This document shows, in pieces, positions 5,353 through 20,013 of a DNA stretch of 59,512 nt (positions are counted from its first letter, which is position 1; every line of letters starts with the position of its first letter). This DNA is from an uncultured Bacilli bacterium. Lineage in GTDB: Bacteria > Bacillota_I > Bacilli_A > RF39 > UBA660. A model generated the notes under the pieces. The model saw only the letters and a list, made by a program, of their open reading frames with translations, was not told the DNA's origin and ran no database searches. A program made the translations under genes and the position numbers. The DNA is taken from NCBI GenBank assembly GCA_910586865.1, contig CAJUIY010000003.1, positions 1-59,512 of the forward strand, read 5' to 3'.

Positions 5353-5822
5353 ATATTAATTTTCACTCCTTTTCTAACAATTTCTATTTGCTGTTTTCTA
5401 AGACATAATACCTTCATCTTTCTATGACATTCAGGGCACCTTGTATGTTTTATTCCTCTAGTGGAAGGTAGTGGTAGTCTTAGTATGGTTTTACACTTTC
5501 GACATTTTTTGTAAATATGATTTCTATCTCTTTTTTCCCATTTTTCTTTTAATTTTCTTCTCAGTAATAAATATTTCACATTTTCTTCTTTTCTTTTTTT
5601 CTTATTCTTGGAATATTTTCGTAACATCATAATCGAAAGAAGAAAGATTTCAACTAGTAATAAACTACGAGAAGAGAAGAAAAGATTCACCATAATTAAA
5701 ATCGTTACGATTTTCAATATAAAATAATAGAGTTCATCTATTCCATAGCGATGATACATCCATTTTTGATACCAACTAATAAATTTCACACATTCCCTCT
5801 TTTCCTTTTTGATAAATTCCAT
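5349..5822 (-). CDS. membrane protein with very basic linker and C-terminal zinc-ribbon (CxxC...CxxC)
   Basis: Two predicted TM helices, a K/R-rich segment, then CRKCKTILRLPLPSTRGIKHTRCPECHRKM. Overlaps the ABC gene start by 4 nt. The true start may be Met22 (5759), just after the TetR stop. Confidence 0.55.
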   Translation of the reverse strand: MEFIKKEKRECVKFISWYQKWMYHRYGIDELYYFILKIVTILIMVNLFFSSRSLLLVEIFLLSIMMLRKYSKNKKKRKEENVKYLLLRRKLKEKWEKRDRNHIYKKCRKCKTILRLPLPSTRGIKHTRCPECHRKMKVLCLRKQQIEIVRKGVKINI

Positions 5823-6548: not shown

Positions 6549-6708
6549 TTTAATAAGGGAATGAAAATCTTTTGTTATATAACTAACCTTATAATCTTTT
6601 ATACCTAACTCACCAACACTTCCTGTTAAAATAGTAGAAGAAACTTAAGATGAATCAATCCCATGAGTATCAATCAATTGGTAGATTAATATTCCAAAGT
6701 GTAGTTCC

Positions 6709-8073
6709 CTAATGTAGTTCCATGCTAGAAGGATTTCCTACAATTAAACAGTCAAAAGTTGTCTTTTGACCATTATAATCTACAGTTACGGTTGTAATCC
6801 CCTTTGTTGCAGAAGAAAAGCCACTTATCATATCCTCTGTTAAAGTTAGCGTAAAGGTTTGGCCATCTTTATCAGTTACCAAAAGAGTACTGCCAGTAAT
6901 ATCAAAAGTATCTCCTACTTTATATGTATTTTTCTTTGGTGTAGCAATAATAGATAAGATAGAACTATCACTACTATCACTACTTTTATAGTTTGTTGCA
7001 TCAAAGAACTCTGTTTTATATTCAATCTTAGCAGCCTTTTTGGTTTTATTATCAACTAATCCTGTAATTTCTACTTTGTATTTATCACCTTCTTTATAAC
7101 GATTACCAGAGGCAGATGGTTGAACAAAGGAAAGATTATAAAAATTCTCTGTTAATTTTCCATTTGCCGTAGTACATTCATAAGATTCATTTGTATTGAG
7201 ATTCGTTACAATTACTTTCAAATTATTAAGTGAATAGCTCATTTCCGCTTTGTTGATTTCCAAAGTCCAAGCCGAAGTATCTACTGGTAAGTCATCAAGA
7301 GGCATATAACCAGGTGCTGGATAAGCAGTATAGGCAAGTGTTTTAGATGCTCCCGTTGCTCCTTTTCCAAGAGCGGAGTATCCCCAAAAACTATTTTGCG
7401 TACTACTAACATAAGCAAACTGAAGACTACTGACACTATCACTAATGATAAAAAATCTATGACCAACCGTATCAAAAGTCGCCTTATTTAAATCATAACC
7501 TTCATCTAACCATCCTGTAATAGCTCCAGTAGGGGTGTATCCCCATGCCAAAATGTTATTGCTTGCTTTCGCACCTTGATTCCATAAGGCCTCACTCATA
7601 TCTGCTGGTTTTCCTTGCGTATTATTAATAATATGATTATGGTTCCAGATACGAACTAAGGCTCCTGCTTGTAAATCAGCAGAATGTGAAGAAGTATTTA
7701 AGGGTTTTGATCCAACCAACCATCTATAATAATTGGTCAGTGCCGTCATAGCAATATGAGTATCTTCTGTTAATTCTCCCCCATTATAAGGTGCTACTAC
7801 AGATGGTTTATTCTTGTAATAACTTTTCTCATCCCCCTCTTTATAAGTAAATCCTGCATTTTTTGCTTTATTATATTCACTAGCTATTTCCTTCTTACTT
7901 CTATTTTTAAATACCTCCCAATCATTTGCATTGTAGACCACTACCTCAATAGCCTTTGTCTCTAGACACAAAAAGGAAATACTAAAAAGGATAGTAGCAA
8001 ATAAAACAATTGCTAGTAACCCTTTCTTCCTTAATTTCTTTTTTTGCATTTTATCTCTCCTATTTTCCGTCAT
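6709..8073 (-). CDS. secreted CAP/SCP (PR-1-like) domain protein with C-terminal bacterial Ig-like domain (454 aa)
   Basis: N-terminal signal/anchor helix. CAP-like block (YYRWLVGSKPL ... GWLDEGY ... GHRFFIIS). The C-terminal about 80 aa resemble Big_3-type Ig repeats (YKVGDTFDITG...TVTVDYNGQKTTF). Confidence 0.75.
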   Translation of the reverse strand: MTENRRDKMQKKKLRKKGLLAIVLFATILFSISFLCLETKAIEVVVYNANDWEVFKNRSKKEIASEYNKAKNAGFTYKEGDEKSYYKNKPSVVAPYNGGELTEDTHIAMTALTNYYRWLVGSKPLNTSSHSADLQAGALVRIWNHNHIINNTQGKPADMSEALWNQGAKASNNILAWGYTPTGAITGWLDEGYDLNKATFDTVGHRFFIISDSVSSLQFAYVSSTQNSFWGYSALGKGATGASKTLAYTAYPAPGYMPLDDLPVDTSAWTLEINKAEMSYSLNNLKVIVTNLNTNESYECTTANGKLTENFYNLSFVQPSASGNRYKEGDKYKVEITGLVDNKTKKAAKIEYKTEFFDATNYKSSDSSDSSILSIIATPKKNTYKVGDTFDITGSTLLVTDKDGQTFTLTLTEDMISGFSSATKGITTVTVDYNGQKTTFDCLIVGNPSSMELH

Positions 8074-8150
8074 TCAAAAGGGTAAATGTATTCTATTTCC
8101 TTATATACTCTTACCTAACCCGTCTGTATTTCTATGACTTTTTTCTTAGT

Positions 8151-8179
8151 ATTATATTAAATCACTCTCTAATAGTCAA
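8151..8179 (-). promoter_or_regulatory. sigma-A promoter for the CAP-domain gene
   Basis: On the minus strand: TTGACT (8179-8174), 17 nt, TATAAT (8156-8151). Confidence 0.5.
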
Positions 8180-8277
8180 CCAATTTTAAAAAGGAGAGTT
8201 AGCATATAAAATAATGATATATACTGACTTTTGCCCCACTAGTTTTCTCCTTCCTTGCTGAAGGAAACTTTTAAGAA

Positions 8278-8309
8278 CAAAAAATCTACTATGTGATATC
8301 ATAGTAGAT
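8278..8309 (-). terminator. terminator after tRNA-Glu
   Basis: Stem ATCTACTATG / CATAGTAGAT (8284-8293 / 8300-8309), followed on the minus strand by TTTTTTG. Confidence 0.55.
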
Positions 8310-8322
8310 AAAAAAAATAAAA

Positions 8323-8399
8323 TGGTAGCCTGTACGGAATTCGAATCCGTGGATGCTGCCTTGAGAGGGCAGTGTGTTGAGCCTCTTCACCAACAGGCC
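8323..8399 (-). tRNA. tRNA-Glu (anticodon CUC)
   Basis: Hand-folded cloverleaf: acceptor GGCCTGT/ACAGGCT, anticodon stem CTGCC/GGCAG with loop CTCTCAA, T-loop TTCGAAT, encoded CCA. Very similar in layout to Bacillus tRNA-Glu. Confidence 0.9.
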
Positions 8400-8491
8400 A
8401 GAAACAATGTCTTCTTGAAAAGACAATATTATCTTACCATTAATTTTCGTTTTTGGCAAGTGTTTTATGAAAATTTTGTCGATTTTTACAG

Positions 8492-8926
8492 TTAATGATA
8501 TAAAGAAAACTTTTTGGTAAGTGGATCTAGTACTTCTTTTTCACCAAAAGTAACTAAACAATAGTATTCCATCTCTTCATTTGATGTTGCTAAAGTTTTT
8601 TCTAATTGTTCTTGGTAAGTATCCCCTGTCATTGTTTCTGTAAAATCTGTATAAAGAAGATTATGTTCCATCAGTTTTTGTCTTAATTTCTTAATTTCTC
8701 CATTTTTTCCTTTCAATACAATGAGTGATAGTCCTGAAATACTTTCATGAAGACCTCCATCCTTATCAGTAAAATCGATAAAACTCATCTTTTCTTTTAT
8801 CTCATCTGGAGCTTTCGCAACCAATCCTGCACAAGAGTGTGCAATCGCATTCAGGGCCTTTCCTATTTCTAAATTTTTATTGACAACTGCTACCAATTTA
8901 TGGGTTTCGTTATATACCATAAACAT
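8492..8926 (-). CDS. DUF2000-family protein (144 aa)
   Basis: Sequence pattern matches my recollection of DUF2000 (KLVAVVNKNLEIGKALNAIAH...DKDGGLH...LIVLKG...DFTE...Y..L..FG). Confidence 0.7.
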   Translation of the reverse strand: MFMVYNETHKLVAVVNKNLEIGKALNAIAHSCAGLVAKAPDEIKEKMSFIDFTDKDGGLHESISGLSLIVLKGKNGEIKKLRQKLMEHNLLYTDFTETMTGDTYQEQLEKTLATSNEEMEYYCLVTFGEKEVLDPLTKKFSLYH

Positions 8927-9006
8927 TCCTCCTTTTTTCTTATTTTACCTGAAATATATTTGTAATACAAGCCAAAAGAAAAACATAAAATGATAATGGT
9001 GATAAG

Positions 9007-9279
9007 ATGTATCAAATACAAGATGCTTTCTATGCAGCAGAACAATTAGGTATTCAGTTCCATCAGTTTAGTCCTGAGGAGTTTTTAACTGGTATTAATA
9101 TAGAACTAGAACATGGAACCATTCATGAGAAAACAAATGTAACGAATGATGATTTAATTACCACAGCAAAGATTGCTTTGGCTCACTTAAACGAATTTCC
9201 TAATTATTATAATAAAGACTATGGATTACTTGTATTCGAAAAATTTTTAGAATCCAAGCTACCAAAGTCTAAAAAATAA
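9007..9279 (+). CDS. small conserved protein, DUF5661-like (90 aa)
   Basis: Motifs IELEHGT and AKIALAHLNEFPNYYNK are as I recall for DUF5661. Followed by a weak hairpin and T-run. Confidence 0.6.
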   Translation: MYQIQDAFYAAEQLGIQFHQFSPEEFLTGINIELEHGTIHEKTNVTNDDLITTAKIALAHLNEFPNYYNKDYGLLVFEKFLESKLPKSKK

Positions 9280-9397
9280 AGAGCAACCCTTAGCTAGTGC
9301 TCTTTTCTTTTCGACTGAATGGAATTACTAAAGCCCAAGAACATCACCCTATTTTCGAAAGATAAGAATGGTATTCTCAGCCACTTCTTCCATTCTC
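9166..9397. repeat. copy A of a diverged direct duplication of about 230 bp (3' end of the DUF5661 gene, terminator, and a decayed 3' end of the Asp-box gene)
   Basis: Hand alignment with 13191-13426. The core (9223-9285 vs 13248-13309) is roughly 85-90% identical and the outer parts are weaker. Same orientation, about 4025 bp apart. Confidence 0.75.
9328..9397 (-). pseudogene. decayed fragment homologous to the 3' end of the Asp-box protein gene at 13229-13915
   Basis: On the minus strand, GAGAATGGAAGAAGTGGCTGAGAA ... CTTGGGCTTTAG aligns with GAAGATGGAAATGGCTATGAAGAG ... CTTGGGTTTTAG of the intact gene. The fragment is interrupted by stops. Confidence 0.35.
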
Positions 9398-9471
9398 AAA
9401 GAATAATTACAAATAAACTTCTTCTGTAAAAAAGAAATCGTATTTTCATATATATCATTTCACATTTCCGC

Positions 9472-10116
9472 CTATTTATTGTTAGAAAGTTTTTTTAGGA
9501 TGCCATCCTCAATCTGATAAGTTTCGTCACATAATTTATGAATATCTTCTTTAATATGCGTAGCTATAATAATTATTTTTCCATCTTTCTTCTCCTTTTG
9601 TAATAATTTTCTAATATTTTTGATACTATTATCATCTACTCCATTAAACGGCTCATCAAAAATTAAGACCTCAGGATCTTCCATAAGGACTTGAGCAATC
9701 CCCAACTTTTGTTTCATGCCTAACGAATACTTATGATATAGCTTATTTGCTTCTTTTTCAAGCCCTACGTTTTGTAATGATTTATCAATCTCGTCTTCTC
9801 CAATTTTAGATTGTAAAGAAGCTAGAAGACTGAGATTTTCTTTTCCTGTTAAATCTGGCAAAAAACTAGGATTTTCTATTAAGGCTCGAGTACTTGGTGG
9901 AAATAAATTATTTTTAATAATATCTACTCCATCAAATAATATTTGTCCTTCGGTTGGTTCCAAAAATGCACATAACATTTTTAATAATATGGTTTTCCCA
10001 GAACCATTAACTCCAATTATTCCATAAATATTTCCACTTTCAAAAGTTAAGTTTACTTTTCTCAATATTTCTACTTCCTTAAATTTTTTTGATACATTTT
10101 TTACTTCTATTTTCAT
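9472..10116 (-). CDS. ABC transporter ATP-binding protein, ABC-2 / lantibiotic-protection (LanF/BcrA)-like (214 aa)
   Basis: Walker A GVNGSGKT, signature YSLGMKQKLGIAQ (typical of LanF/BcrA-type NBDs), Walker B LIFDEP, H-loop ATH. Start overlaps the upstream permease stop by 4 nt. Confidence 0.85.
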   Translation of the reverse strand: MKIEVKNVSKKFKEVEILRKVNLTFESGNIYGIIGVNGSGKTILLKMLCAFLEPTEGQILFDGVDIIKNNLFPPSTRALIENPSFLPDLTGKENLSLLASLQSKIGEDEIDKSLQNVGLEKEANKLYHKYSLGMKQKLGIAQVLMEDPEVLIFDEPFNGVDDNSIKNIRKLLQKEKKDGKIIIIATHIKEDIHKLCDETYQIEDGILKKLSNNK

Positions 10117-11558
10117 AATTTACCTCCTAACATTTCCGTAACATTTCTTCTTTTTAATTTAATATTTTTTATCAGTTGTACCATTAAAATTATGGTAAGA
10201 ATTAGTAATCCATAAAGATAATGACGATACCAAATGATGTTTTTTGGCATTAGAGTGATAAAAATCATGATAAAGCAAAAAATCATTCCTTTTCTAATAA
10301 AATTACCCTCTTTACAGTGAAACAAAATCCATAGACTAACTTGTTGTACTATATTTGTAAATAAAACGTCGGATATGAATAAATTGATAATACTTTTGAA
10401 ATCGAAATTAGAATTAGTTTTTAAACATATCATTAAAATTAATACGATATACTGACTTATCTTTATCATAGTTAGTAAGAAAATAAGCACTATTTGTTTG
10501 TTAAAACACCATTTTGTAGTAGAAATCCTTAAAAATAAATTATCTTTCTTTCTAATCAAATCATGGATGTAAAAAGAGATTGCCAAATAGATGTGAATCA
10601 TAATGTTAATAATAAACATCATGATATCAATAGGAAAATAGCTATCTATCCTTAATCCCATGCTGGTAATCAGCATCTCCTCACTACTAATATCATAGTT
10701 AGAAATAATAAAATATAAAGAAAAGGCAGGAATAAGAATTAATGTGAGTATGTATTTATAATTTTTCTTTATCATATATTTTATATCGCTTATGGCAATA
10801 TATTTCATAAATATTTTCTCTCTCCTATTTATCAAGTGGTAGACAAAAATAACTAGTACTTCCAACAAAAGTATATATAGTAGAGAGTAACTAACTTCAA
10901 GCATAAAATTTCCATAATCAATATTTTCAAAATATCGCCAGATTGGTAACTGAAAAGTATTAGTAGTTTCCATGATTCCTAATGGATATAACCAAAAGGC
11001 AAAAACAAAGATAAAATCAATTACAATGACTTTTTCCTCTTTTAGTTTATGATACAAAAAGACATTAAAGATACTAACTAAAAGGGTAAGTACTATATAT
11101 CTTAGTAAATAAAAGATAGTATAGACCATATTATTAATATATCCATTATAGCTTTTGATATAGATATAGCCGCATTTTAAAATATTTACAACACTTAAAT
11201 AAGAAAGTAGGATAACTAAACTAACGATTAAATTACTGTAAACTACTAGTTTTATTAATTCTTTCAAATATTTCTTTTTGTTCTCTAGTCTTATAAGGTA
11301 AGAATCATATTGATTAAAAGTAGAACAAACATTCACGGTATTAATTAAAATTACTAAAAAGAATAAGCTATTGAAAGTTGCAAATTGAAAGGTATTTAAT
11401 ATTGCTGAAAAATAATTTTTAATTCCTGCCGTTAGAACAAAACTTCCATATAAACTTAAGAGAATGGATAAAAGTATGGTAGCTTTAAACTTTCTTGTTT
11501 TTGTGATAAATTTTAAAATCTCTGTAGTAGTATTTTTTTTATGAAATTTCTCTTTCAT
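10113..11558 (-). CDS. polytopic membrane protein, putative second permease component of the ABC-2 system (481 aa)
   Basis: More than 10 hydrophobic helices, extremely AT-rich coding. Overlaps both neighbours (20 nt with the upstream permease, 4 nt with the downstream ATPase). No recognisable motif. Confidence 0.65.
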   Translation of the reverse strand: MKEKFHKKNTTTEILKFITKTRKFKATILLSILLSLYGSFVLTAGIKNYFSAILNTFQFATFNSLFFLVILINTVNVCSTFNQYDSYLIRLENKKKYLKELIKLVVYSNLIVSLVILLSYLSVVNILKCGYIYIKSYNGYINNMVYTIFYLLRYIVLTLLVSIFNVFLYHKLKEEKVIVIDFIFVFAFWLYPLGIMETTNTFQLPIWRYFENIDYGNFMLEVSYSLLYILLLEVLVIFVYHLINRREKIFMKYIAISDIKYMIKKNYKYILTLILIPAFSLYFIISNYDISSEEMLITSMGLRIDSYFPIDIMMFIINIMIHIYLAISFYIHDLIRKKDNLFLRISTTKWCFNKQIVLIFLLTMIKISQYIVLILMICLKTNSNFDFKSIINLFISDVLFTNIVQQVSLWILFHCKEGNFIRKGMIFCFIMIFITLMPKNIIWYRHYLYGLLILTIILMVQLIKNIKLKRRNVTEMLGGKL

Positions 11559-12462
11559 TTTCGATCAAAACCCTTTCTTTCGTTTGGTAACTTTTCCATA
11601 AAATGATATAAGACGATATACAGAATAGAATAGAAAAGAAACAAGGAATGATTAAATTGTTATTGCTATCTAAATTCCAATATGCTAGTAGATTAAAATA
11701 TTCATATGGTATATCAATTCCTAATATTTTATTAATAATTAGGGCATAAACTCCTGCATATAAAATAATAACAAAGATAAAATAAGTGATATAAGCATAA
11801 AGAATGGTTATGAATTTTGATTTACTTTTTTTACAAAAGATAATTCCTATATTTCCATAGAATATTCCTAAAAAGAAGTGAATAATACACAATGCAAACC
11901 CATATAATAAAAAGTGATTATATTTAAAAGGTTCATATACAGCAATTCCTTTTACTTCCGCATCCATATTAAAATTAAACCTAGTAATCAAACAAGAAAG
12001 TATAAATGTCAAAATAAATAAAAACGGTAGGAATAAAGCGGGTTTTAAACTTTTTTTCAATATTTTTTTGAGGTAATCTTTATAACGAATTCTTGTTAAA
12101 TAATTTTTAATCATACCACTACTAAATTCAGAATGTATACTATTAATTGTTAAGATGATAATAATTAGAGGTTCTATTAATGGAAAGTTTTGAAATTCAT
12201 GATGCGCTACTATTTCATATGTCAAAGTAAGTGCATCTAATTTTTTTAATTTTTCTTTAGGGGATTCAAAGGTGCTAAACTCTTTACAGATAAGTTCATC
12301 TTTGGTTTTTTCACATTTTTCCTTTATTTCATTGTAATAGGGACCATATGAGTAATAATCTCTATAATATTGATAAAAAGAAATTAATACAATAAATATA
12401 GAAATAAAAATAGCTAATATTATCAGATTGTTTTTTTTAATATATCTTTTCCATTTTTCCAT
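11539..12462 (-). CDS. ABC-2-type permease-like membrane protein (307 aa)
   Basis: TM1, then an extracytoplasmic loop of about 70 aa, then five TMs. EFSSGMIKNYLTRIRYKDYLKK resembles the conserved E..sGt...ll..p.sR block of ABC-2 permeases. Confidence 0.65.
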   Translation of the reverse strand: MEKWKRYIKKNNLIILAIFISIFIVLISFYQYYRDYYSYGPYYNEIKEKCEKTKDELICKEFSTFESPKEKLKKLDALTLTYEIVAHHEFQNFPLIEPLIIIILTINSIHSEFSSGMIKNYLTRIRYKDYLKKILKKSLKPALFLPFLFILTFILSCLITRFNFNMDAEVKGIAVYEPFKYNHFLLYGFALCIIHFFLGIFYGNIGIIFCKKSKSKFITILYAYITYFIFVIILYAGVYALIINKILGIDIPYEYFNLLAYWNLDSNNNLIIPCFFSILFCISSYIILWKSYQTKERVLIENEREIS

Positions 12463-12527
12463 AAGGTAATTGTCCTTTCTTATTCGTCTGATAAATGCAA
12501 GTTTGGGGTAATTATTTCAGTTTTTTA

Positions 12528-12932
12528 TTAATCTAAATTCCAAGAACCATAGAAACTACCAGTAGTAATAAAAGAGTTTTTCGCTCTAAGATTCAAACGA
12601 TAAGTCGATGGTACTGTGTTGTTTCCATTGGTTTCTGTTAATTGAATAGAAGTTCCCTTTGGCAGACTTTTCCAACTAGATGTTGTGCCATTATTAACAC
12701 GATAAGTTCGTGCCTCGATTGCCATTTCGTTACCACTTACATCATCTGTACAAGTAGTTTTTACTGCAAACTGATTACTATAGTTATCTTTGTTGTGATT
12801 ATTAGTTGAGCTAGTTTGACTTCTTATCTTTATTGTTAAATCTACAATTCCTACGACTTGTGCAGATGCTGAACTTAGTGCAAAAAAGAATGTTAGAAGA
12901 AATAATAAAGATGTTATTTTTACGTATTTCAT
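12528..12932 (-). CDS. secreted beta-rich protein of unknown family (134 aa; mature about 110 aa)
   Basis: Strong RBS AAAGGAGG. Sec signal peptide with an ASA-Q cleavage site and no lipobox. The mature part is S/T/N-rich with alternating beta-strand-like patterns, and the C-terminus is GSFYGSWNLD. First gene of the ABC-2 cassette. Confidence 0.7.
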   Translation of the reverse strand: MKYVKITSLLFLLTFFFALSSASAQVVGIVDLTIKIRSQTSSTNNHNKDNYSNQFAVKTTCTDDVSGNEMAIEARTYRVNNGTTSSWKSLPKGTSIQLTETNGNNTVPSTYRLNLRAKNSFITTGSFYGSWNLD

Positions 12933-13190
12933 ATCATATCGTACCTCCTTTAATAATTACCCTGTTTGCACTTTATAATTATCATAATTTGTAGAATAAT
13001 GTTTCATAATTCTTTGAAATGTATAGTTAAGGAAGTTAACGGCTATTTTTTATTAAATCATAGCACATTGTTGACGTTTTGTATACTAATTTGTTATTCT
13101 TATACCATAGAAAGAATGATTTAGGATAAAATCATAATATCTAGGTTACAAAATCTTAAAACATCTCATTTTGTTATTTTAATTTGATGA

Positions 13191-13304
13191 CTTGTTTTTG
13201 CTTTGGCTCTCTTAAATGAATTTTCTAATTACAACAATAAACGCTCTGGATTACTTATTTTCGAAAAATCTTTAAAAATCCAAGCTACCAAATCAAAAAA
13301 ATAA
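13191..13304 (+). pseudogene. relic of the last 37 codons of a DUF5661-like gene
   Basis: Plus-strand translation LVFALALLNEFSNYNNKRSGLLIFEKSLKIQATKSKK* aligns with AKIALAHLNEFPNYYNKDYGLLVFEKFLESKLPKSKK* of 9007-9279. Preceded by an in-frame TGA at 13188, with no upstream coding continuation. Confidence 0.7.
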
Positions 13305-13426
13305 AGAGCCACTCTCAATCTATTGCTCTTTTCTTTTTGATTAACTGTATTTTCTAAAACCCAAGTAAGTCCTTTATCAATACTTTTAAACTCAAAATCC
13401 TTCTCTTCATAGCCATTTCCATCTTC
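13191..13426. repeat. copy B of the diverged direct duplication of about 230 bp
   Basis: See copy A. Here the Asp-box gene is the intact member and the DUF5661 part is the relic. Confidence 0.75.
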
Positions 13427-13915
13427 TGTTAAATCATAAACAGAACATTTCATTCTTAATTCGCTACCAGCTTGATAAGGAAATTCCTCGATTGTAATCA
13501 AATCCACATTTTCATTATCATAGGAAAACTTAGCATCCATAAAAGTTTTTCCTCCATCTAAAGTTACTTTAAATCCTTTAAAATCATTTTCTCTTCTTAT
13601 ATATCCAGTGGATATAACATAACCTACTTTCTCATTCGTAAACAAAAACCTGGCTTCTTGACTCACTGTAATTGGCTCCTTTGTTACTTTGGTATAACTT
13701 TTCCCATTGTCTGTACTTTTTTCCACTCCTACTATCCTATTTTGTCCAAGAACATCATCATATTTTTGAAAAGAAAGAATGGTATTTCTAAATCTTCTTG
13801 AATAGAGAAGATTCTCCTCTACTTTTTCTTTCTTATTATTAGAAAATAATAAGAAGAAAAAAACAATAAGGATACCAAGAATAAGAAATAGACTAAAAAT
13901 TTTTTTCTTGTCCAT
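13229..13915 (-). CDS. membrane-anchored extracytoplasmic protein with Asp-box (BNR-like) repeats (228 aa)
   Basis: N-terminal TM helix. Three S-x-D-x-G-x-(T/S)-(W/F/Y)-like motifs (STDNGKSY, TLDGGKTF, SIDKGLTW). Start abuts the stop of the upstream gene. The last about 35 codons read antisense through the DUF5661 relic. Confidence 0.65.
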   Translation of the reverse strand: MDKKKIFSLFLILGILIVFFFLLFSNNKKEKVEENLLYSRRFRNTILSFQKYDDVLGQNRIVGVEKSTDNGKSYTKVTKEPITVSQEARFLFTNEKVGYVISTGYIRRENDFKGFKVTLDGGKTFMDAKFSYDNENVDLITIEEFPYQAGSELRMKCSVYDLTEDGNGYEEKDFEFKSIDKGLTWVLENTVNQKEKSNRLRVALYFFDLVAWIFKDFSKISNPERLLL

Positions 13916-14695
13916 CTAACCACCTACCCTTTTTTGTTTTTTTATCTTTTCTTTAACGTCTTTTCTTTTTGAAATATATTCTTTCATCACTTGATAATAT
14001 TGATAGTCCCATTCTAAATTCTTATTTCCTTTTATTTGAGATATATTAGTGATTTGTTGATTTTGTAAATCACTATTAAAATCATCCATAAATTCACCTA
14101 ATGATGTTTTTAATATAGAAAATGAGAGAAAATCATATTTTTTTAGGTATTTTTTCACCACATCTTTAGGCGTTTCCCCTCTTCGTAAAAAGAAATAAGC
14201 AAGATCATATGGTGCTCGTGCATGTGGTTCTATTTCTTTTTCTAAATCCTCCCTTTCTATTTTCTCTGAAATTCTTCTGATCGTATTAGATTTCAATGCT
14301 CTTTCTGTCTGAAGAAGATAAATCATAGGGGAAAAGTTAGAATAGATTGGCTGTTTTCTTTCGATAAGAGAAGAGACAAGGAAAGAAAAGGTCTCTTCCG
14401 TCAACTCTTTTTCAAAATAATAAATAGTATATAGGATGGTAGTATAAGAAAAATTACCCTGATTCATAAAGGAAGAGTCTTTCAAAATAGATTGAAGAAA
14501 ATCATCTACTTCTTCCTTTAATTGCTTTACTCTTTTTCCTTCTTTGACATAAAGACTAGCTGAACACAAGCTGTAAAAAGCCCCTGATGCAAAATTCATA
14601 ATTTCGAAACATTTTTTCTCTAATTGGTCAACTCCTGCTACTTCGTTCATCCTAATATCCCCCAAAAACAAAATTTTCTCAATATACTCTATCAT
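13916..14695 (-). CDS. hypothetical cytoplasmic helical protein (259 aa)
   Basis: Long ORF 22 nt downstream of the histidine kinase gene and directly abutting the Asp-box gene. No recognisable motifs. Confidence 0.6.
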   Translation of the reverse strand: MIEYIEKILFLGDIRMNEVAGVDQLEKKCFEIMNFASGAFYSLCSASLYVKEGKRVKQLKEEVDDFLQSILKDSSFMNQGNFSYTTILYTIYYFEKELTEETFSFLVSSLIERKQPIYSNFSPMIYLLQTERALKSNTIRRISEKIEREDLEKEIEPHARAPYDLAYFFLRRGETPKDVVKKYLKKYDFLSFSILKTSLGEFMDDFNSDLQNQQITNISQIKGNKNLEWDYQYYQVMKEYISKRKDVKEKIKKQKRVGG

Positions 14696-14717
14696 AACAT
14701 AACTTTATCATAATGTC

Positions 14718-15740
14718 TCATTCTTTTCTTATTTTTTTCTCTTCAATATGATGTATACTACTTTTTGGAAGGATGAGAATTACTTTAGTATATTCTTTCT
14801 CTTTTGATTCTATTTGTAACTTTAATCCAAGTTTTTCACATAATTTATTGGAAAGATATAAACCCATACCAGTTGCTTGTTCTTTTTTTCGATTTTTTCC
14901 CGTAAAACCTTTTTCAAATACACGAGTAATATCAGAGGATAAAATACCACACCCATTATCCATTATTTCGAGGACTAGCTTGTTTTTCTCTTCTTTGGCT
15001 TTGATTTCTATTTTCTTTCTTTTTTTATCCAAATATTTAATGGAATTTTGAATGATTTGTGAAAGAATAAAAATTAACCATTTTTCATCGGTATAGACAA
15101 AGTAATCTAAATCTTTTATTTCTAGTTGAATCTTTCTTTTTAAAAGATAATTCTTATAATTTAAAAGTACTTGATGAATCACTTCCTCTAGCTTTATCTT
15201 TTTTACAAAATAATCGTGATAAACGTCTTCACTTCTCGCATAAAAAAGAATTTGTTCTACTAAATGATAAATTTTTTCTAATTCCTCTTTGGCTTCTTCC
15301 TGTTCTAAATTATCAAACATCAAAGATAATGCAGAAATAGGAGTTTTAATTTCATGTACAAAACTTTCAATATACTCACGATAATCCTTTTTTTCTTCCT
15401 CTATCATACTAAGTTTATCATGAAAAGATTTACAAGTTTTCTTTAACACTTCATAGTATCCTAGATTTTCTAGATTCTTTGGTCTTTTCATGATAGTAGA
15501 AATCAAATACTTTTCCTCCAAACTATCAACCATATGAATCATTTTTTCTACTTTTTTTCTCTCTTGGTAGAAATAAATTCCGAAAGAAAGAAAAGTATAA
15601 AAAAGAAAAATACTACAATAAAGAATAATAAAAGGAAAAGGGACTTGAAAAATACCTAGTAAAATACTATTAAAAACTAAAAAAGAAATAACAAAAATGA
15701 GAAACCATATTTTACTTTCTAGAAATGTTAAAAATCTCAT
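14718..15740 (-). CDS. BceS-type intramembrane-sensing histidine kinase (340 aa)
   Basis: Two N-terminal TM helices with almost no extracellular loop. H-box HEIKTPIS. N, G1 and G2 boxes (NSIKY, DNGCGI, GMGLYL). Overlaps the response regulator gene by 4 nt. Confidence 0.9.
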   Translation of the reverse strand: MRFLTFLESKIWFLIFVISFLVFNSILLGIFQVPFPFIILYCSIFLFYTFLSFGIYFYQERKKVEKMIHMVDSLEEKYLISTIMKRPKNLENLGYYEVLKKTCKSFHDKLSMIEEEKKDYREYIESFVHEIKTPISALSLMFDNLEQEEAKEELEKIYHLVEQILFYARSEDVYHDYFVKKIKLEEVIHQVLLNYKNYLLKRKIQLEIKDLDYFVYTDEKWLIFILSQIIQNSIKYLDKKRKKIEIKAKEEKNKLVLEIMDNGCGILSSDITRVFEKGFTGKNRKKEQATGMGLYLSNKLCEKLGLKLQIESKEKEYTKVILILPKSSIHHIEEKKIRKE

Positions 15741-16408
15741 AAGCGATACCCTTGTCCCCGAATCGTTTCTATAAAGTTAGTAATTCCAATCTCTTCTGCC
15801 TTTTTTCTTAAACGATTGATATTTACCATTAAAATATTCTCATCTAGATAACATTTATCATTCCATAGGTACTCTAACAGCTCCTCTTTCGTAATAATAC
15901 GATTCTCCTCTAAAAAGAAATAATAAAGAATACGAAATTCATTTCTCGTTAATTCTATTTCTCTTCCCTTATATTTTAAAATAGATAAGTGTAAATCTAA
16001 AGTGTACCCTTTTTTTGTAATCTCTTTATAGTTTTTAGGATCTATCATCTGAAGTGCTCTTTTGATTTTTTCTAATAAAATACTTTTATGATAAGGTTTT
16101 GTTATAAAATCAATTCCACCGGATTGAATACTAATTAATTCATCTTTTTGGGTATTTCTACTGGTAACAAAGAGAATAGGAATATTACTCTTCTTTTTAA
16201 TTCTTTTACAAATCGCAAAACCACTTTCATAAGGTAAATTAATGTCTAAGAGAATTAAGTTGATCGAATAAAGAGAAAGACTTTCTTCTATTTTTTCAAA
16301 GTCCGTTATTTTAATCGTCTGATAACCATTGGTTTCTAATAATTTCGAAAGTTCTTCTCGAATGACTTCTTCATCTTCAATAATCGCAATTGTCATGAAA
16401 AACACCAC
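15737..16408 (-). CDS. OmpR/BceR-family response regulator
   Basis: Receiver domain (IIEDEE...LLDINLP...) plus a winged-helix output (TRNEFRILYYF...RGQGYRL). The likely true start is ATG at 16396, preceded by AGGTGGTG. Confidence 0.9.
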   Translation of the reverse strand: MVFFMTIAIIEDEEVIREELSKLLETNGYQTIKITDFEKIEESLSLYSINLILLDINLPYESGFAICKRIKKKSNIPILFVTSRNTQKDELISIQSGGIDFITKPYHKSILLEKIKRALQMIDPKNYKEITKKGYTLDLHLSILKYKGREIELTRNEFRILYYFFLEENRIITKEELLEYLWNDKCYLDENILMVNINRLRKKAEEIGITNFIETIRGQGYRL

Positions 16409-16431
16409 CTACTTTTTATTGTACCATGTAT

Positions 16432-17001
16432 CTAAAACAATTCCATAAAAATACTATAAAAAATTAAAGTAAATGGTTTTCCAACCACAATATAAAGAAA
16501 AAACTTTTTTAGACTCATATTGGATAATCCTGCCACATAACATAATAAATCATCTGGTAGGCCTGGTAATAGAATCCCTAAGAAGAAGATTTGATGAAAT
16601 CTTTTTGTCTTAATATAGGCTAGATACTTCTCAATGGTTTCTTCTTTGAATAATTTTTTGACAAAAGGAAGACCATATCTTCTAGATAAAAGAAAAGCAA
16701 CAACAGAACCTAATACTAGACCAATATAGTTATAAATAAAACCAAAGATTGGACCAAAAGCAAGAACTCCTGCGAGACAAGAAGCTCCTCCTGGTATCAC
16801 AGGAAATACTACTTGTACCATCTGCAAGAAAAGGAAAAAGATTGGTGCTATGACCCCAAACTTTTGAATATAAGAAACGAGTATCTCCTTTTCTTTAAAA
16901 ATTCCTAGTTTTAATCCATAAAGAATAAAAAGAATAATTAAGATGGTCATAATAATCGTTACCATATGAAAGATTGTTTTTACTTTGTTTTTTTGCTGCA
17001 T
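16432..17001 (-). CDS. TVP38/TMEM64 (DedA-superfamily, SNARE-associated) membrane protein (189 aa)
   Basis: Typical TVP38 pattern: FPVIPGGASCLAGVLAFGP ... LPGLPDDLLCYVAGLS. Embedded between bceB and the two-component genes. Confidence 0.8.
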   Translation of the reverse strand: MQQKNKVKTIFHMVTIIMTILIILFILYGLKLGIFKEKEILVSYIQKFGVIAPIFFLFLQMVQVVFPVIPGGASCLAGVLAFGPIFGFIYNYIGLVLGSVVAFLLSRRYGLPFVKKLFKEETIEKYLAYIKTKRFHQIFFLGILLPGLPDDLLCYVAGLSNMSLKKFFLYIVVGKPFTLIFYSIFMELF

Positions 17002-17046
17002 TTTACTACTCCTTACTACTATTTATTATTTGTCTTTTTTTTCTTC

Positions 17047-19056
17047 TTATTCCTCTACATTCTTTTTAAATCCAAAGTAAGTAGATAGAAAGTAAAGGAA
17101 ATAAATTATTAGAAAAAGGAAAATATTCATACCAAAATAAGTTAAATAAACCGTATCTTTTTCTAATGATACTTTAAAGATTCGATTCATCGATGTTAAA
17201 GTACAAATACTTATGATAGTTGGATAAAGAAGAGGGAAAAGGAAAAAGATGGAGAGTTGTTTGAATATGGTCTTATGAAGAGTATCTCTACGGACTCCTA
17301 ATTTACTTAATACTTGATAACGATATTTATACTTTGTAGAATCACTTAATTGTTGAATTGCTAAAATGGTTCCCACAACCGCAGTAAACACAAAAGCGAT
17401 ATAAAAACAAACAAAAGCAATGATTGTTACAAATCCATTATTTTGAGATTTTTCTTTTCCCCGTACAATTAAATTAGCAATGGAATAACAAAGATATTGA
17501 CCATTCTCATTATAATAACAAAAATCATCATCCGAAAACTTCGCAAGTTTATCATAAAAAGCCTCTGTCGTCTCCTCTTTCGTATCCACAATTAAATGAG
17601 AATCTGCGATTTTAAGATTTTCTACGATAGAATCTGGTACTACGATGGTAAAGCCATATCCCATTCCCCAAGCATAAGTATATCCTTCTGTAAAAAAATA
17701 TTTTTGCTTCAATTGTTTTCCATTTGATAACGTAATTTCTTTTAAGTCTTTATCATTTTTTAAAGTCTTATACTCTCTCGTAACATGTAATAAATATTCA
17801 TCCTCTAAAAGAGAAACCTCTTTCTTTCCTCTTAATTTTAATAACTTGTTATAGTCACTTAATTTAATAAACTGATCATGTTCTCTCCAACCAGCCTCAT
17901 CCCCTGATTTTCTGGCAATGGCTTTCATCACATTATTATTATTTTCGTAATAACTATCATAAATTAATTCTTCTTCTATGGTATAGTGTTCTTTAATAAA
18001 TTCCTCATATTTCTTGATATCTTCTTTTTTAATATCTAAACTAATATCATAAGGTGCTACTACTTCTAATTGATAGTCAAACATTCCTTTAAATAAACTA
18101 GATAGATTTAAGGCAATTAGGGTAAAGGCAATGAAAGCGGTTAAGGTTCCTATTGTAAATCCCATGGTCTTCATCTTAGAAGCAAAACATCTTGCAATAA
18201 ATAGATTGTCACTATGATATTTTATCTTCTTATTTTTTAAAACAAGTTGGAGGATAAAATGAGAAATCGAAATGGATAGTAAATAAATACTAAGAAGAAG
18301 GAAAAGAATACAAATAAAAATCATAATGAGAGAAGGATTTCTTCCTAAGGTGTGAAATTCTCTATCAAATAAATCAAGAGAAGTTACTCCTAATATGAGA
18401 GAGATAAGAAGAAAAAGTCCCTGATAACTCGCTTCTTTTTTCCTTCTTTTTTCATTTTGTTTTTCAAGATAGAAAAGATCATATACTTTTATTTTTTTTA
18501 CTCTTCTTCTAGAAAGAAATAAAACAATAAAATAGATAATACAAAAATAAAGAAGTAAAGTGAGAATAGCTTGGATAGAAAAATCTATTTTTACTAGTTG
18601 TCCTAAATCAAAAATATTCATAATAATAGAAGAGGCAAAGATACTAAAGAGATAACCAATTGGCAAGGATAGTAAAAAAGAGAAAGAACCTAGTATTATA
18701 TTTTCTAGAAGAAACATCTTTGTAATATAAGATTTTTTAATTCCTAGTATTAAATAAGTTCCAAATTCTTTGCTTCTTTTTTCAAACATAAATTTTGTCG
18801 TATAGTTAATTAAAAAACAGATAACAAGTATCATGAAAATATTTACGATATACATCACCAATTGAAAGGATTTCATCACATAACTTAACTGTAATACTTC
18901 TTTCGAATTACTAAGCAAGTTAAAAGCAAACATCAAGGAAAAAGCCATCATTACTGTAATAAAATAGATGACATAGTCCTTACTACTCCTTTTTGCATTT
19001 AGAAAAGCTAACTTACTTAACACTAGAAACATCTCCCCCAAGTAATGTAATGACAT
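17047..19056 (-). CDS. BceB-type FtsX-family ABC permease (669 aa)
   Basis: About 10 TM helices with a large extracytoplasmic domain between TM7 and TM8, the size and layout of BceB/VraG permeases. Overlaps bceA-like; the real start may be an internal Met. Confidence 0.85.
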   Translation of the reverse strand: MSLHYLGEMFLVLSKLAFLNAKRSSKDYVIYFITVMMAFSLMFAFNLLSNSKEVLQLSYVMKSFQLVMYIVNIFMILVICFLINYTTKFMFEKRSKEFGTYLILGIKKSYITKMFLLENIILGSFSFLLSLPIGYLFSIFASSIIMNIFDLGQLVKIDFSIQAILTLLLYFCIIYFIVLFLSRRRVKKIKVYDLFYLEKQNEKRRKKEASYQGLFLLISLILGVTSLDLFDREFHTLGRNPSLIMIFICILFLLLSIYLLSISISHFILQLVLKNKKIKYHSDNLFIARCFASKMKTMGFTIGTLTAFIAFTLIALNLSSLFKGMFDYQLEVVAPYDISLDIKKEDIKKYEEFIKEHYTIEEELIYDSYYENNNNVMKAIARKSGDEAGWREHDQFIKLSDYNKLLKLRGKKEVSLLEDEYLLHVTREYKTLKNDKDLKEITLSNGKQLKQKYFFTEGYTYAWGMGYGFTIVVPDSIVENLKIADSHLIVDTKEETTEAFYDKLAKFSDDDFCYYNENGQYLCYSIANLIVRGKEKSQNNGFVTIIAFVCFYIAFVFTAVVGTILAIQQLSDSTKYKYRYQVLSKLGVRRDTLHKTIFKQLSIFFLFPLLYPTIISICTLTSMNRIFKVSLEKDTVYLTYFGMNIFLFLIIYFLYFLSTYFGFKKNVEE

Positions 19057-19789: not shown

Positions 19790-19925
19790 GCTCCATTTGT
19801 GATTTTACTAATCGAATCCCTTTTGTTAAAAAATAGATAATCCCTACTACCAATAAAAAAGGAATCATTAGAATAAGAACAAGGCAAATTAGTAATTTTA
19901 AAAGAATATTTTTTACACTATTCAT
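19782..19925 (-). CDS. unannotated 47-aa single-TM small protein translationally coupled to the bceA-like gene
   Basis: Hand translation: MNSVKNILLKLLICLVLILMIPFLLVVGIIYFLTKGIRLVKSQMERV. RBS AGAAGGGA lies 7 nt upstream. Its TAA stop is separated by 1 nt from the bceA ATG (TAAAATG). Below the ORF-track cutoff. Confidence 0.45.
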   Translation of the reverse strand: MNSVKNILLKLLICLVLILMIPFLLVVGIIYFLTKGIRLVKSQMERV

Positions 19926-19949
19926 CTATGTTCCCTTCTTTCTAATAAA

Positions 19950-19992: not shown

Positions 19993-20013
19993 GGTTAAAG
20001 TAAGAAAGGTGGT

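What the first reader, a model, noticed from the sequence alone, without database searches (positions are those of the whole stretch)
9166..13426. The 3.8-kb ABC-2 cassette is bracketed by a diverged direct duplication of about 230 bp of the local convergent gene junction
The junction is the DUF5661 3' end, then a terminator, then the Asp-box gene 3' end. It occurs twice in the same orientation, at 9166-9397 and 13191-13426.

In the left copy the DUF5661 gene is intact and the Asp-box part is decayed by stops and frameshifts. In the right copy the Asp-box gene is intact and only the last 37 DUF5661 codons survive (LVFALALLNEFSNYNNKRSGLLIFEKSLKIQATKSKK* vs AKIALAHLNEFPNYYNKDYGLLVFEKFLESKLPKSKK*).

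Everything between the copies (9398-13190) is the four-gene cassette. This is the scar expected from Campbell-type single-crossover integration of a circular DNA carrying a homeologous copy of this junction. It therefore suggests horizontal acquisition without any integrase or transposase. By eye the cassette also looks more AT-rich than its surroundings.
Basis: seen in the sequence. Interest (0 to 1): 0.65.

Follow-up and report, generated by a model that had tools for sequence, protein, structure and literature searches.

The report
Gene cassette flanked by duplicated insertion site
A four-gene transporter cassette sits in an uncultured mouse-gut bacterium between two decaying copies of 589 bp of its insertion site; this is a clear but fairly ordinary example of gene gain by recombination without any integrase.

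Summary
The repeat is real but mis-measured. Window 9173-9340 matches 13198-13365 (82%, E 4e-43). Then 9335-9375 matches 13746-13786, so the left Asp-box remnant carries a 380-bp internal deletion, not "stops and frameshifts".

A relative 5-6% diverged (L035) keeps more of the left copy. It shows that the duplicated segment S was 589 bp (13198-13786): DUF5661 codons 56-90, a terminator-like hairpin, and Asp-box codons 44-199.

Empty sites exist. One is conspecific (L006-L011), one more distant (L028-L034).

The cassette also occurs elsewhere. An 82.6%-identical copy lies in an unrelated context (L036). A 42%-identical version is cargo of a conjugative element (L037-L040). No integrase or transposase lies within 10 kb.

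So acquisition with an S-X-S layout, the layout a Campbell-type crossover would leave, is supported.
- GC3 of the cassette equals the host's.
- The 18% divergence looks like pseudogene decay plus gene conversion (an 83-bp identical tract in L035), not donor homeology.

The event predates the split from L035. Campbell integration cannot be separated from a one-step illegitimate insertion with target duplication.

The parts
9007..9279 (+). Intact DUF5661 gene (90 aa). Its last 35 codons lie inside the left copy of S.
   Evidence: Pfam PF18905, E 1e-14. It is 94% identical to the empty-site orthologue in L006.
9173..9340 (.). Left copy of the duplicated segment (S_L), block 1. It holds the DUF5661 3' end, the hairpin and the last ~13 codons of an Asp-box pseudogene.
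   Evidence: 82% identical to 13198-13365, E 4e-43. None of 1000 shuffles reached the score.
9278..9305 (.). Left terminator-like hairpin (8-bp stem, 12-nt loop, A run before and T run after).
   Evidence: Fold -12.7 kcal/mol, z -2.8 on the + strand and -16.3 kcal/mol on the - strand. The consensus scan did not call it. In some strains an IS3-type element sits here.
9335..9375 (-). S_L block 2: an internal Asp-box fragment (codons ~44-57). It is joined to block 1 across a 380-bp deletion at CCAAG.
   Evidence: 35/41 identical to 13746-13786, E 2e-9. L035 keeps 80 bp of this block and has a smaller, 194-bp deletion.
9376..9427 (.). 52-bp linker of unknown origin between S_L and the cassette proper.
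   Evidence: It has no homology to the Asp-box 5' part and none to L036. It was found only in occupied loci.
9428..13072 (-). Cassette proper: one transcription unit with upstream region, four genes and its own weak terminator.
   Evidence: 82.6% nt identity to L036 over exactly this span, where the flanks are different. The same gene order sits on a conjugative element at 42% aa identity.
9472..10116 (-). ABC ATPase (214 aa).
   Evidence: PF00005, E 2e-30. Best NCBIfam hit is TIGR03740, the lantibiotic-protection ABC ATPase: 180 bits, below its cut-off of 310.
10113..11558 (-). 481-aa polytopic membrane protein. It looks like a fusion of two permease halves of ~225-250 aa.
   Evidence: No Pfam or NCBIfam family. 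Of 225 relatives among 1.84 billion representatives, many are ~225-250 aa and match either residues 10-248 or residues 250-470.
11539..12462 (-). 307-aa polytopic membrane protein.
   Evidence: ORF. No family hit. Conserved in L035, L036 and L037-L040.
12528..12932 (-). 134-aa protein with an N-terminal signal-peptide-like sequence (…ALSSASA/QV).
   Evidence: ORF. Weak DUF5979 hit, E 3e-4, below the cut-off. It is the first gene of the unit in every context.
13073..13197 (.). 125-bp linker of unknown origin between the cassette proper and S_R.
   Evidence: Not in L036. No homology to the DUF5661 5' part. Found only in occupied loci, 91% identical in L035.
13198..13786 (.). Right, full-length copy of the duplicated segment (S_R, 589 bp).
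   Evidence: The outer ends are shared by the window and L035. The whole window holds no further copy.
13198..13304 (+). DUF5661 3' pseudogene (codons 56-90 plus stop), with a +1/-1 frameshift pair and replacements at otherwise invariant residues.
   Evidence: Alignments. None of the 120 best-scoring homologues is closer to it than to the intact copy.
13303..13331 (.). Right terminator-like hairpin (7-bp stem, 15-nt loop).
   Evidence: Fold -12.6 kcal/mol, z -5.1.
13229..13915 (-). Intact Asp-box gene. It is 199 aa in sister strains. In this window a 1-bp insertion at 13317 removes the stop and adds 29 codons that read antisense through the DUF5661 remnant.
   Evidence: The only BNR hit is below the Pfam cut-off.

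Best explanation
WHAT IT IS. An ancestor of this mouse-gut Bacilli lineage gained a self-contained four-gene ABC-transporter operon (X, window 9376-13197). X landed in the junction between the convergent DUF5661 and Asp-box genes. The same event duplicated 589 bp of that junction (S), giving S-X-S. The outer half of each S copy still completes a working gene. The inner halves are redundant and are decaying.

SHOWN:
- the repeat and its true extent;
- one shared origin in two lineages about 5-6% apart;
- the decay: point changes, frameshifts and two different microhomology deletions;
- gene conversion between the copies in L035;
- empty sites in relatives;
- the cassette in other contexts;
- no recombinase gene nearby.

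INFERRED MECHANISM (about 40% likely, the leading option). RecA-type single reciprocal crossover (Campbell-type insertion-duplication) between the chromosomal junction and a circular DNA carrying X joined to a copy of S. That copy came from the same or a very similar lineage, not from a distant homeologue.

ALSO INFERRED. Once formed, the allele spread or was replaced among strains by ordinary homologous recombination in the conserved flanks. In principle it could loop out again through the repeats.

LIKELY FUNCTION OF X (inferred, weak). An exporter or immunity pump of the kind that protects against lantibiotics. This rests on ATPase similarity and a two-half permease.
For: - Repeat statistics.
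- L035 carries the same outer ends with a longer left copy (314 bp + 80 bp), so there was one ancestral event with S = 589 bp.
- No detectable homology beyond either end of S.
- Empty sites: L006-L011 have HK/RR 99-100% identical to the window and the two stops 10 bp apart. L028-L034 are also empty.
- The cassette proper (9428-13072) is 82.6% identical to L036, where it is flanked by an unrelated AAA gene.
- The same 134-307-485-220 gene order is cargo beside PrgI/TraG-like genes and a 524-aa serine recombinase in L037-L040.
- No integrase or transposase appears in the gene tables 10 kb either side. No inverted repeat pairs the two ends of X.
- Decay signature: the changes shared by the window and L035 remnants are non-synonymous and fall at residues that do not vary in the 120 best-scoring homologues. 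There are 18 private changes on the L035 Asp-box remnant, against 4-8 on the sister functional branch.
- An 83-bp identical run inside repeats otherwise 12-16% diverged in L035 shows that homologous recombination acts on these repeats.
- Mosaic identity to the empty-site strain: 99-100% from about 14800 onward, but 87-96% across 13400-14750.
- ATPase family and split-permease relatives.
Against: - No circular S+X form, and no read joint across a single S, was seen. Only assembled contigs were available, so this absence says little.
- A circle carrying resident-type S must itself have been made by two illegitimate joints (13786|9376 and 13197|13198). The Campbell step therefore does not remove the need for illegitimate recombination.
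- The 52-bp and 125-bp linkers have no identified source. No plasmid, phage or viral contig carries the cassette.
- dN/dS of the L035 Asp-box remnant against its functional copy is 0.34 (11.7 synonymous, 19.3 non-synonymous differences). That resembles the value between functional alleles, so some starting divergence cannot be excluded.
- Gene conversion blurs every age or origin estimate.
- Composition gives no support for foreign origin.
Confidence: 0.4

Rival explanations
1. One-step illegitimate insertion with target duplication. During replication or break repair, a nascent end left the chromosome at Asp-box codon 44 (13786). It copied or joined about 3.8 kb of foreign DNA present in the cell (from a conjugative element or from taken-up DNA). 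It then re-entered the sister or template 589 bp behind, at DUF5661 codon 56 (13198). This is template switching, or double illegitimate recombination across sister chromosomes. No circle carrying S is needed.
For: - The two S copies appear to derive from the resident lineage itself.
- X is only one operon plus 52-bp and 125-bp linkers, with no vector or backbone remnant.
- Both joints lie in the middle of genes, with no homology beyond them.
- Every model needs two illegitimate joints, and this one needs nothing more.
- Illegitimate recombination is argued to be a major source of small variable segments in bacterial genomes (PMC2884548).
Against: - Strictly illegitimate events are very rare, about 1e-8 per cell as quoted in PMC2884548. 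A double event with a 589-bp setback is not, to my knowledge, a well-documented route in Firmicutes.
- The donor sequence is unknown, so microhomology at the joints cannot be checked.
Confidence: 0.3
2. Remnant of a site-specific integrative element (genomic islet, decayed IME/ICE or CIME-like). The element integrated at the left end of S, inside DUF5661, and carried its own replacement 3' end plus adjacent captured host DNA, much as prophage e14 does at icd. The integrase and the rest of the element were later deleted.
For: - Relatives of the cassette are cargo of a conjugative element with a serine recombinase.
- Element-borne replacement of a target gene's 3' end, with a displaced pseudo-3'-end at the other side, is known for e14 at icd. 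There the functional icdA and the restored icd+ alleles differ by 12 SNPs, a truncated icd copy (icdC) lies at the other end of the prophage, and the crossover falls in 11-bp direct repeats in icdA and icdC (PMC4759930).
Against: - No integrase in the window lineage or in L035.
- S includes about 480 bp of antisense Asp-box coding sequence, which is of no use to an element.
- At e14, 10 of the 12 icd differences are synonymous. Here the remnant differs by non-synonymous decay.
- The longest identical run between the window's copies is 16 bp, with no recognisable core.
- 589 bp is far longer than the attachment-site repeats I know of (own knowledge).
Confidence: 0.1
3. Two once-complete paralogous DUF5661-terminator-Asp-box modules flanked the cassette. 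Two later deletions trimmed the inner genes, so the ends of S are deletion endpoints and not recombination joints. The cassette could then be ancestral to the locus and the empty sites secondary.
For: - On backbone similarity the empty-site strain B is nested with the window (HK/RR 99-100% identical). Its Asp-box/259-aa tract, however, lies outside both the window and L035 (dS 0.26 against 0.12). B may therefore have lost the cassette by allelic replacement.
- Deletions at microhomologies do occur in this remnant.
Against: - It needs a module duplication plus two independent deletions, all before the split from L035.
- More distant lineages are empty (D) or lack part of the junction altogether (E, F). 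The GTDB relatives of the Asp-box gene show no cassette nearby.
- The cassette occurs in unrelated contexts.
Confidence: 0.1

Closest known systems
Campbell-type insertion-duplication: single-crossover integration of non-replicating circular DNA carrying a chromosomal fragment, as used for insertion-duplication mutagenesis in streptococci and Bacillus (own knowledge)
   Same: Direct repeats of a unique chromosomal fragment flank the inserted DNA. The genes that cross the outer ends stay intact. No site-specific recombinase is needed. The repeats can recombine again.
   Different: Here it is a natural, ancient event. No vector backbone is left, only 52-bp and 125-bp linkers. The circular precursor is inferred, not seen. 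The repeats are now 82% identical and one is internally deleted.
Prophage e14 (and phage 21) at icd in E. coli (PMC4759930; the phage 21 part is own knowledge)
   Same: An insert is flanked by two diverged copies of the 3' end of the target gene, and one copy keeps the gene functional.
   Different: e14 uses an integrase acting on an 11-bp core, and its icd copies differ mostly at synonymous sites. Here there is no integrase. The repeat spans two convergent genes (589 bp), and the differences look like pseudogene decay.
Minimal mobile elements of Neisseria: variable cassettes between conserved flanking genes, exchanged by homologous recombination (Saunders and Snyder 2002, as cited in PMC3787668)
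   Same: The locus holds different gene content in close relatives between conserved flanks. The identity profile to the empty-site strain is mosaic, with a sharp break near 14790.
   Different: Minimal mobile elements are not defined by a flanking duplication of the target. Natural competence of this organism is unknown.
Homology-facilitated illegitimate recombination, i.e. foreign DNA capture during transformation (de Vries and Wackernagel 2002; Prudhomme et al. 2002, as cited in PMC2884548)
   Same: Foreign DNA is acquired without mobile-element enzymes, through joints in the middle of genes.
   Different: As far as I know (own knowledge), it usually replaces or deletes recipient DNA next to the anchor. 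Here 589 bp of recipient DNA are duplicated.
LanFEG-type lantibiotic-protection ABC transporters
   Same: The ATPase's best family hit is TIGR03740. The 481-aa protein looks like two fused permease halves of ~225-250 aa. A small secreted protein is encoded alongside.
   Different: The ATPase scores below the family cut-off. The permeases match no Pfam or NCBIfam model, and neither do ten of their relatives that were tested. There is an extra 307-aa membrane protein and no lantibiotic genes nearby.

Membership tests
Campbell-type (homologous single-crossover) insertion-duplication product | Same-orientation duplication of a unique chromosomal segment immediately flanking the insert | tested here: met
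   9173-9375 (with an internal deletion) against 13198-13786. The window holds no other copy.
Campbell-type (homologous single-crossover) insertion-duplication product | Relatives with a single copy of the segment and no insert (empty site) | tested here: met
   L006-L011 and L028-L034.
Campbell-type (homologous single-crossover) insertion-duplication product | A circular precursor or excision product carrying the insert plus one copy of the segment | tested here: inconclusive
   No such joint appeared in four runs, but only assembled contigs were available. No plasmid, phage or viral match.
   The remnants group with the resident alleles and show decay-type changes. However, dN/dS is 0.34 for the L035 Asp-box remnant, and gene conversion blurs the signal.
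Site-specific integrative element (island, IME, CIME, prophage remnant) | Integrase or recombinase gene in or next to the insert | tested here: not met
   None in the gene tables of L001, L002 and L035, and none among the Pfam hits of the cassette proteins.
Site-specific integrative element (island, IME, CIME, prophage remnant) | Short identical core sequence at both ends | tested here: inconclusive
   The longest identical run between the window's copies is 16 bp, inside the DUF5661 tail. Nothing marks it as a core.
Transposon or IS-bounded unit | Transposase, terminal inverted repeats and a short (2-15 bp) target duplication | tested here: not met
   There is no transposase. No inverted repeat pairs 9376-9430 with 13070-13197. 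The duplication is 589 bp. The IS3-type element in L041/X3 is a separate, later insertion.
Minimal mobile element | Variable gene content between conserved flanking genes in close relatives, with signs of flanking homologous recombination | tested here: met
   The occupied and empty alleles share HK/RR at 99-100% identity but differ by 5-13% across 13400-14750. Other lineages vary further.
LanFEG-type / ABC-2 exporter | ATPase reaches the curated score of the lantibiotic-protection family | tested here: not met
   TIGR03740: 180 bits against a cut-off of 309.75.
LanFEG-type / ABC-2 exporter | Permeases belong to a described ABC-2 membrane family | tested here: not met
   No Pfam or NCBIfam hit for the 481-aa or 307-aa proteins, nor for ten relatives. 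The structure model was too poor to compare (pLDDT 42.7).

The most novel reading that the evidence does not exclude
S-X-S is a working, integrase-free mobile unit addressed by homology. Host RecA loops out a circle of the cassette plus one S. After transfer to an empty-site strain, the circle re-enters by a single crossover at the convergent junction without harming either gene. The decayed state seen here would be such an element becoming fixed.
Probability: 0.12. Interest if true: 0.6.

Novelty: new member of a known kind. Interest (0 to 1): 0.35.

Why it matters
This is a clean natural case in which the empty site, the occupied site at two stages of decay, and the same cassette in other contexts (including as conjugative-element cargo) can all be compared. 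It shows how a single operon can enter a chromosome with no recombinase of its own while leaving both neighbouring genes intact. It also shows how the scar then erodes through point decay, microhomology deletions and gene conversion.

It carries a warning for scar-reading. Divergence between flanking repeats and low GC were both taken as signs of a foreign, homeologous donor, and neither holds up here. The biological novelty is modest.

The cassette's permeases belong to a family not yet described in Pfam or NCBIfam, which may deserve a functional test.

Tried and rejected
- The genome-collection scan with the Asp-box protein alone found nothing. With an alignment it found only distant MAGs (54% identity or less) labelled Bacilli, Tenericutes or Erysipelotrichaceae. 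These had no DUF5661 or cassette nearby, so they say nothing about the junction.
- Searches for the cassette in plasmids, phage records (one 132-nt, 72% chance-level match), viral contigs and JGI metagenome contigs (one locus of the 42% type only) gave no donor.
- Tests for homology beyond either end of S, in the window and in L035, were at shuffle level. I therefore rejected the idea that whole genes were duplicated and merely decayed beyond recognition. Full erosion cannot be excluded.
- The 52-bp and 125-bp linkers match nothing outside occupied loci.
- Composition as evidence of foreign origin was rejected: GC3 is the same as the host's.
- Looking for a donor lineage of the DUF5661 remnant among the 120 best-scoring homologues failed. 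None is closer to the remnant than to the intact copy.
- Laying contigs of four mouse-gut runs on the locus showed no cassette-less joint and no circle joint. These are assemblies, so the absence is uninformative.
- The structure prediction of the 481-aa protein was too poor to use (pLDDT 42.7), so no fold search was run.
- The consensus terminator scan called nothing in 8900-14000. The hairpins are supported only by folding energy.

Full report
1. THE OBSERVATION

The region holds these ORFs, with family assignments from Pfam:
- an intact DUF5661 gene, 9007-9279 (+), PF18905, E 1e-14;
- four tightly packed minus-strand genes:
  - an ABC ATPase, 9472-10116;
  - a 481-aa membrane protein, 10113-11558;
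  - a 307-aa membrane protein, 11539-12462;
  - a 134-aa protein with a signal-peptide-like start, 12528-12932;
- the Asp-box gene, 13229-13915 (-), with only a sub-threshold BNR hit;
- a 259-aa gene, then a histidine kinase and a response regulator.

A gapped self-comparison gives 9173-9340 against 13198-13365 at 139/169 identical (82%), E 4e-43. The repeat finder reports the ungapped core at 78% over 118 nt. None of 1000 shuffles reaches the observed score. The repeat is real.

The first 7 nt are unrelated. The segment 9341-9397 against 13366-13426 is at chance level, with 200 of 1000 shuffles reaching it.

Instead, 9335-9375 matches 13746-13786, which lies 380 bp deeper in the Asp-box gene (35/41, E 2e-9; 0 of 1000 shuffles). 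The two matches overlap on CCAAG. The left Asp-box remnant therefore carries an internal deletion at a microhomology. The window contains no further copy of the repeat or of the cassette.

2. RELATIVES

The Asp-box protein has few relatives (32 clusters). Their contigs, together with those found through DUF5661 and the 481-aa protein, define these alleles of the locus:

- Lineage A: the window, L001-L005 and L041-L043. These are 99.3-99.8% identical and carry the same structure.
- Lineage C: L035, an ENA/NCBI metagenome contig. It is about 94-95% identical to the window across the whole locus, including the kinase and regulator. It carries the cassette at the same place.
- Lineage B: L006-L011. 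These have no cassette, and the stop codons of Asp-box and DUF5661 lie 10 bp apart.
- Lineage D: L028-L034. The site is also empty, and the two-component system is missing too.
- Lineages E (L044) and F (L045): one lacks the Asp-box gene and the other lacks DUF5661.

The sequencing runs that hold the window are labelled mouse gut metagenomes, and one holds it exactly as a 59,462-bp contig. The nearest GTDB genomes are distant MAGs labelled Bacilli, Tenericutes or Erysipelotrichaceae, and they are uninformative here.

3. TRUE EXTENT AND AGE OF THE DUPLICATION

In L035 the repeat is 848-1157 against 5052-5365 (314 bp, 87.6%) plus 1156-1235 against 5560-5639 (80 bp, 96%). In window coordinates this runs from 13198 to 13786 with only 13513-13706 missing. 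The outer ends are the same as in the window.

One ancestral event therefore duplicated a 589-bp segment S. S comprises DUF5661 codons 56-90 with the stop, the hairpin, and Asp-box codons 44-199. The left copy later lost 194 bp in C and 380 bp in A. These may be nested or independent deletions.

Neither lineage shows homology beyond S on either side (shuffle tests). Both ends of S lie in the middle of genes. Because S spans the 3' ends of two convergent genes, S-X-S leaves one intact DUF5661 on the left and one intact Asp-box gene on the right.

4. WHERE THE INSERT BEGINS AND ENDS, AND WHERE ELSE IT OCCURS

The empty site of L006 is collinear with the window up to 9339 from the left and from 13198 on the right. 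About 167 bp of L006 are represented twice in the window.

The 481-aa protein has only five clusters of relatives in the indexed search.
- L036 carries all four genes at 82.6% nucleotide identity over window 9428-13072. That span includes the upstream region and a short hairpin plus T run after the ATPase. L036 is flanked by an unrelated convergent AAA gene and shows no trace of S.
- L037-L040 carry the same gene order at about 42% protein identity. There the genes lie between transfer genes (PrgI, TraG-like P-loop) and a 524-aa serine recombinase. The right flanks differ among contigs, as expected for cargo of a conjugative element.

Between S and the cassette proper lie 52 bp (9376-9427) and 125 bp (13073-13197), which occur only in occupied loci. 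No plasmid, phage or viral contig carries the cassette, and the JGI metagenome scan added only one locus of the 42% type.

The cassette is thus a discrete, self-contained unit that occurs in at least three unrelated settings.

5. IS THE DUPLICATED COPY 'HOMEOLOGOUS'?

In the three-way alignment, the empty site resembles the left (functional) copy in the DUF5661 part. The right remnant carries the differences.

Those differences are replacements at positions that do not vary in the 120 best-scoring homologues: His to Leu, Tyr to Asn, Tyr to Ser. None of those homologues is closer to the remnant than to the intact gene.

Read codon by codon, the changes shared by the window and L035 remnants are non-synonymous, and none is a synonymous difference from the resident alleles. 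Functional alleles compared with each other give dN/dS of 0.07-0.16. Remnant against functional copy gives 0.35-1.45. The remnant also keeps the lineage-specific tail (…SKLPKSKK).

For the Asp-box half, the site patterns are as follows:
- 3 sites place the L035 remnant with the A/C functional alleles;
- 1 site places it outside B;
- 0 sites place it with B;
- the remnant has 18 private changes, against 4-8 on the sister functional branch.

All this points to decay of a copy that started out like the resident sequence.

Two caveats remain.
- dN/dS between the L035 Asp-box remnant and its functional copy is 0.34 (11.7 synonymous and 19.3 non-synonymous differences). That is no higher than between functional alleles. 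By my own binomial estimate from those counts, it is only weakly incompatible (p about 0.09) with one neutral plus one constrained branch.
- L035 has an 83-bp perfectly identical run inside repeats otherwise 12-16% diverged. Each lineage's remnant also carries its own lineage's tail and terminator loop. The copies have therefore exchanged sequence by gene conversion.

Divergence between the copies therefore cannot be read as the donor's divergence. Homeology is neither needed nor excluded.

6. COMPOSITION

Raw GC falls to 0.23-0.25 across 10000-12500. GC3 of the four genes is 0.195, 0.249, 0.185 and 0.200, inside the window's range of 0.217 +/- 0.027 over 45 ORFs. The drop lies in codon positions 1 and 2 of the two membrane-protein genes. 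This is an amino-acid effect, not a foreign signature.

7. POPULATION HISTORY

The window and the empty-site strain B are 99-100% identical through the kinase, the regulator and beyond. They are only 87-96% identical across 13400-14750 and about 93-96% across 8300-9300, with a sharp break near 14790.

In the Asp-box gene, B lies outside both A and C (dS 0.26 against 0.12). On the backbone, however, B is nearest to A.

The simplest reading has three parts. The insertion predates the A/C split. A and C inherited it. B received an empty-site allele from a more distant lineage by homologous recombination in the flanks. D, E, F and the distant MAGs indicate that the cassette-free state is the older one.

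This is the behaviour described for minimal mobile elements (PMC3787668).

8. MECHANISM

Any origin needs two illegitimate joints: Asp-box codon 44 to the 52-bp linker, and the 125-bp linker to DUF5661 codon 56.

(a) Campbell-type crossover of a circle carrying X and S. This is the classic way to obtain repeats of hundreds of bp around an insert. It relies on efficient homologous recombination, which demonstrably acts on these repeats. The circle, however, is not observed. It would have had to acquire resident-type S beforehand and then leave no backbone.

(b) A one-step illegitimate insertion with a 589-bp setback, by template switching or by joining across sister chromosomes. This needs no circle and fits the bare insert. 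Such events are very rare (rates quoted in PMC2884548).

(c) A decayed site-specific element of the e14-at-icd kind (PMC4759930). This lacks any integrase in either lineage, and it does not explain the 480 bp of antisense Asp-box sequence.

(d) Two complete paralogous modules later trimmed by deletion. This needs more events.

I rate these at about 0.4, 0.3, 0.1 and 0.1. The broader statement has much higher confidence, about 0.85. That statement is: an acquired operon inserted at this junction with a 589-bp target duplication, old, decaying, and free of any recombinase.

9. WHAT THE CASSETTE IS

The ATPase's best curated family is the lantibiotic-protection ABC ATPase TIGR03740, at 180 bits and below its cut-off. 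It is followed by DrrA, GldA and similar exporter ATPases.

The 481-aa protein has 225 relatives among 1.84 billion representatives. Many are ~225-250 aa and match either its first or its second half, so it is probably a fusion of two permease subunits. Neither it, nor the 307-aa protein, nor ten tested relatives match any Pfam or NCBIfam family. The structure model was unusable (pLDDT 42.7).

'ABC-2' is thus plausible from the ATPase but unproven for the permeases.

The surrounding genes are PspC, LiaF-like, an ABC plus FtsX pair, a DedA/VTT protein and the kinase-regulator pair. They suggest an envelope-stress or peptide-antibiotic setting. This is inference only.

10. VERDICT

It is unsupported on homeology and on AT-richness, and it is not decisive between Campbell integration and a one-step illegitimate insertion.

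This is a well-documented member of a known kind of event and is of moderate interest.

Noticed in passing
window 9286-9296; L041 12274-12770; run X3: In some sister strains an IS3-type insertion sequence (rve, rve_2 and rve_3 integrase-core domains; the ends read TGAACCCC…) sits in the loop of the left terminator-like hairpin. Contigs overlap by about 5 bp at the insertion point, and assemblies break there.
   Followed up: partly
window 13317-13323 (Asp-box stop region): This strain has one extra base at 13317 and a T where sister strains have G at 13323. These changes remove the Asp-box stop codon. The ORF is 228 aa instead of 199 aa and reads antisense through the hairpin and the DUF5661 remnant.
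   Followed up: yes
L035 898-980 against 5102-5184: An 83-bp perfectly identical run lies inside repeats otherwise 12-16% diverged. It covers the DUF5661 tail and the hairpin and carries lineage-specific substitutions in both copies. This indicates gene conversion between the two copies.
   Followed up: yes
window 10113-11558: The 481-aa membrane protein looks like a fusion of two ~225-250-aa permease halves. Its family (225 relatives among 1.84 billion representatives) has no Pfam or NCBIfam model.
   Followed up: partly
L037-L040 8411-12120: The same four-gene order (134, 307, 485 and 220 aa) is carried next to PrgI and TraG-like transfer genes, HTH regulators and a 524-aa serine recombinase. 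The chromosomal flanks differ among contigs, one of which is labelled human gut metagenome. This looks like cargo of a conjugative element.
   Followed up: partly
window 13400-14790 against 14800-16600 (compared with L006): Identity to the empty-site strain jumps from 87-96% to 99-100% at about 14790, between the 259-aa gene and the histidine kinase. Further alternations occur at 16700-16900 and 18200-19300. This indicates mosaic recombination tracts.
   Followed up: partly
window about 6700-20000 and loci L028, L044, L045: The stretch between the PspC/LiaF/DUF4097 genes and DUF2000 is a plasticity zone. The ABC+FtsX pair, the kinase-regulator pair, the Asp-box gene and DUF5661 are each present or absent in different lineages. 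One lineage has an ISL3 transposase next to DUF2000 (L029).
   Followed up: no
window 6709-8073 against L006 11891-15112: The neighbouring secreted CAP/Big_3 protein is 454 aa here but 1073-1074 aa in lineages B and D, and the region 8100-8300 is only 61-71% alike. This is a fast-changing surface-protein gene.
   Followed up: no
window 9007-9279: DUF5661 is a very widespread and highly conserved small protein. The search found 3830 hits, and the 120 best listed are 70-99% identical over about 87-90 aa. Its function is unknown.
   Followed up: no
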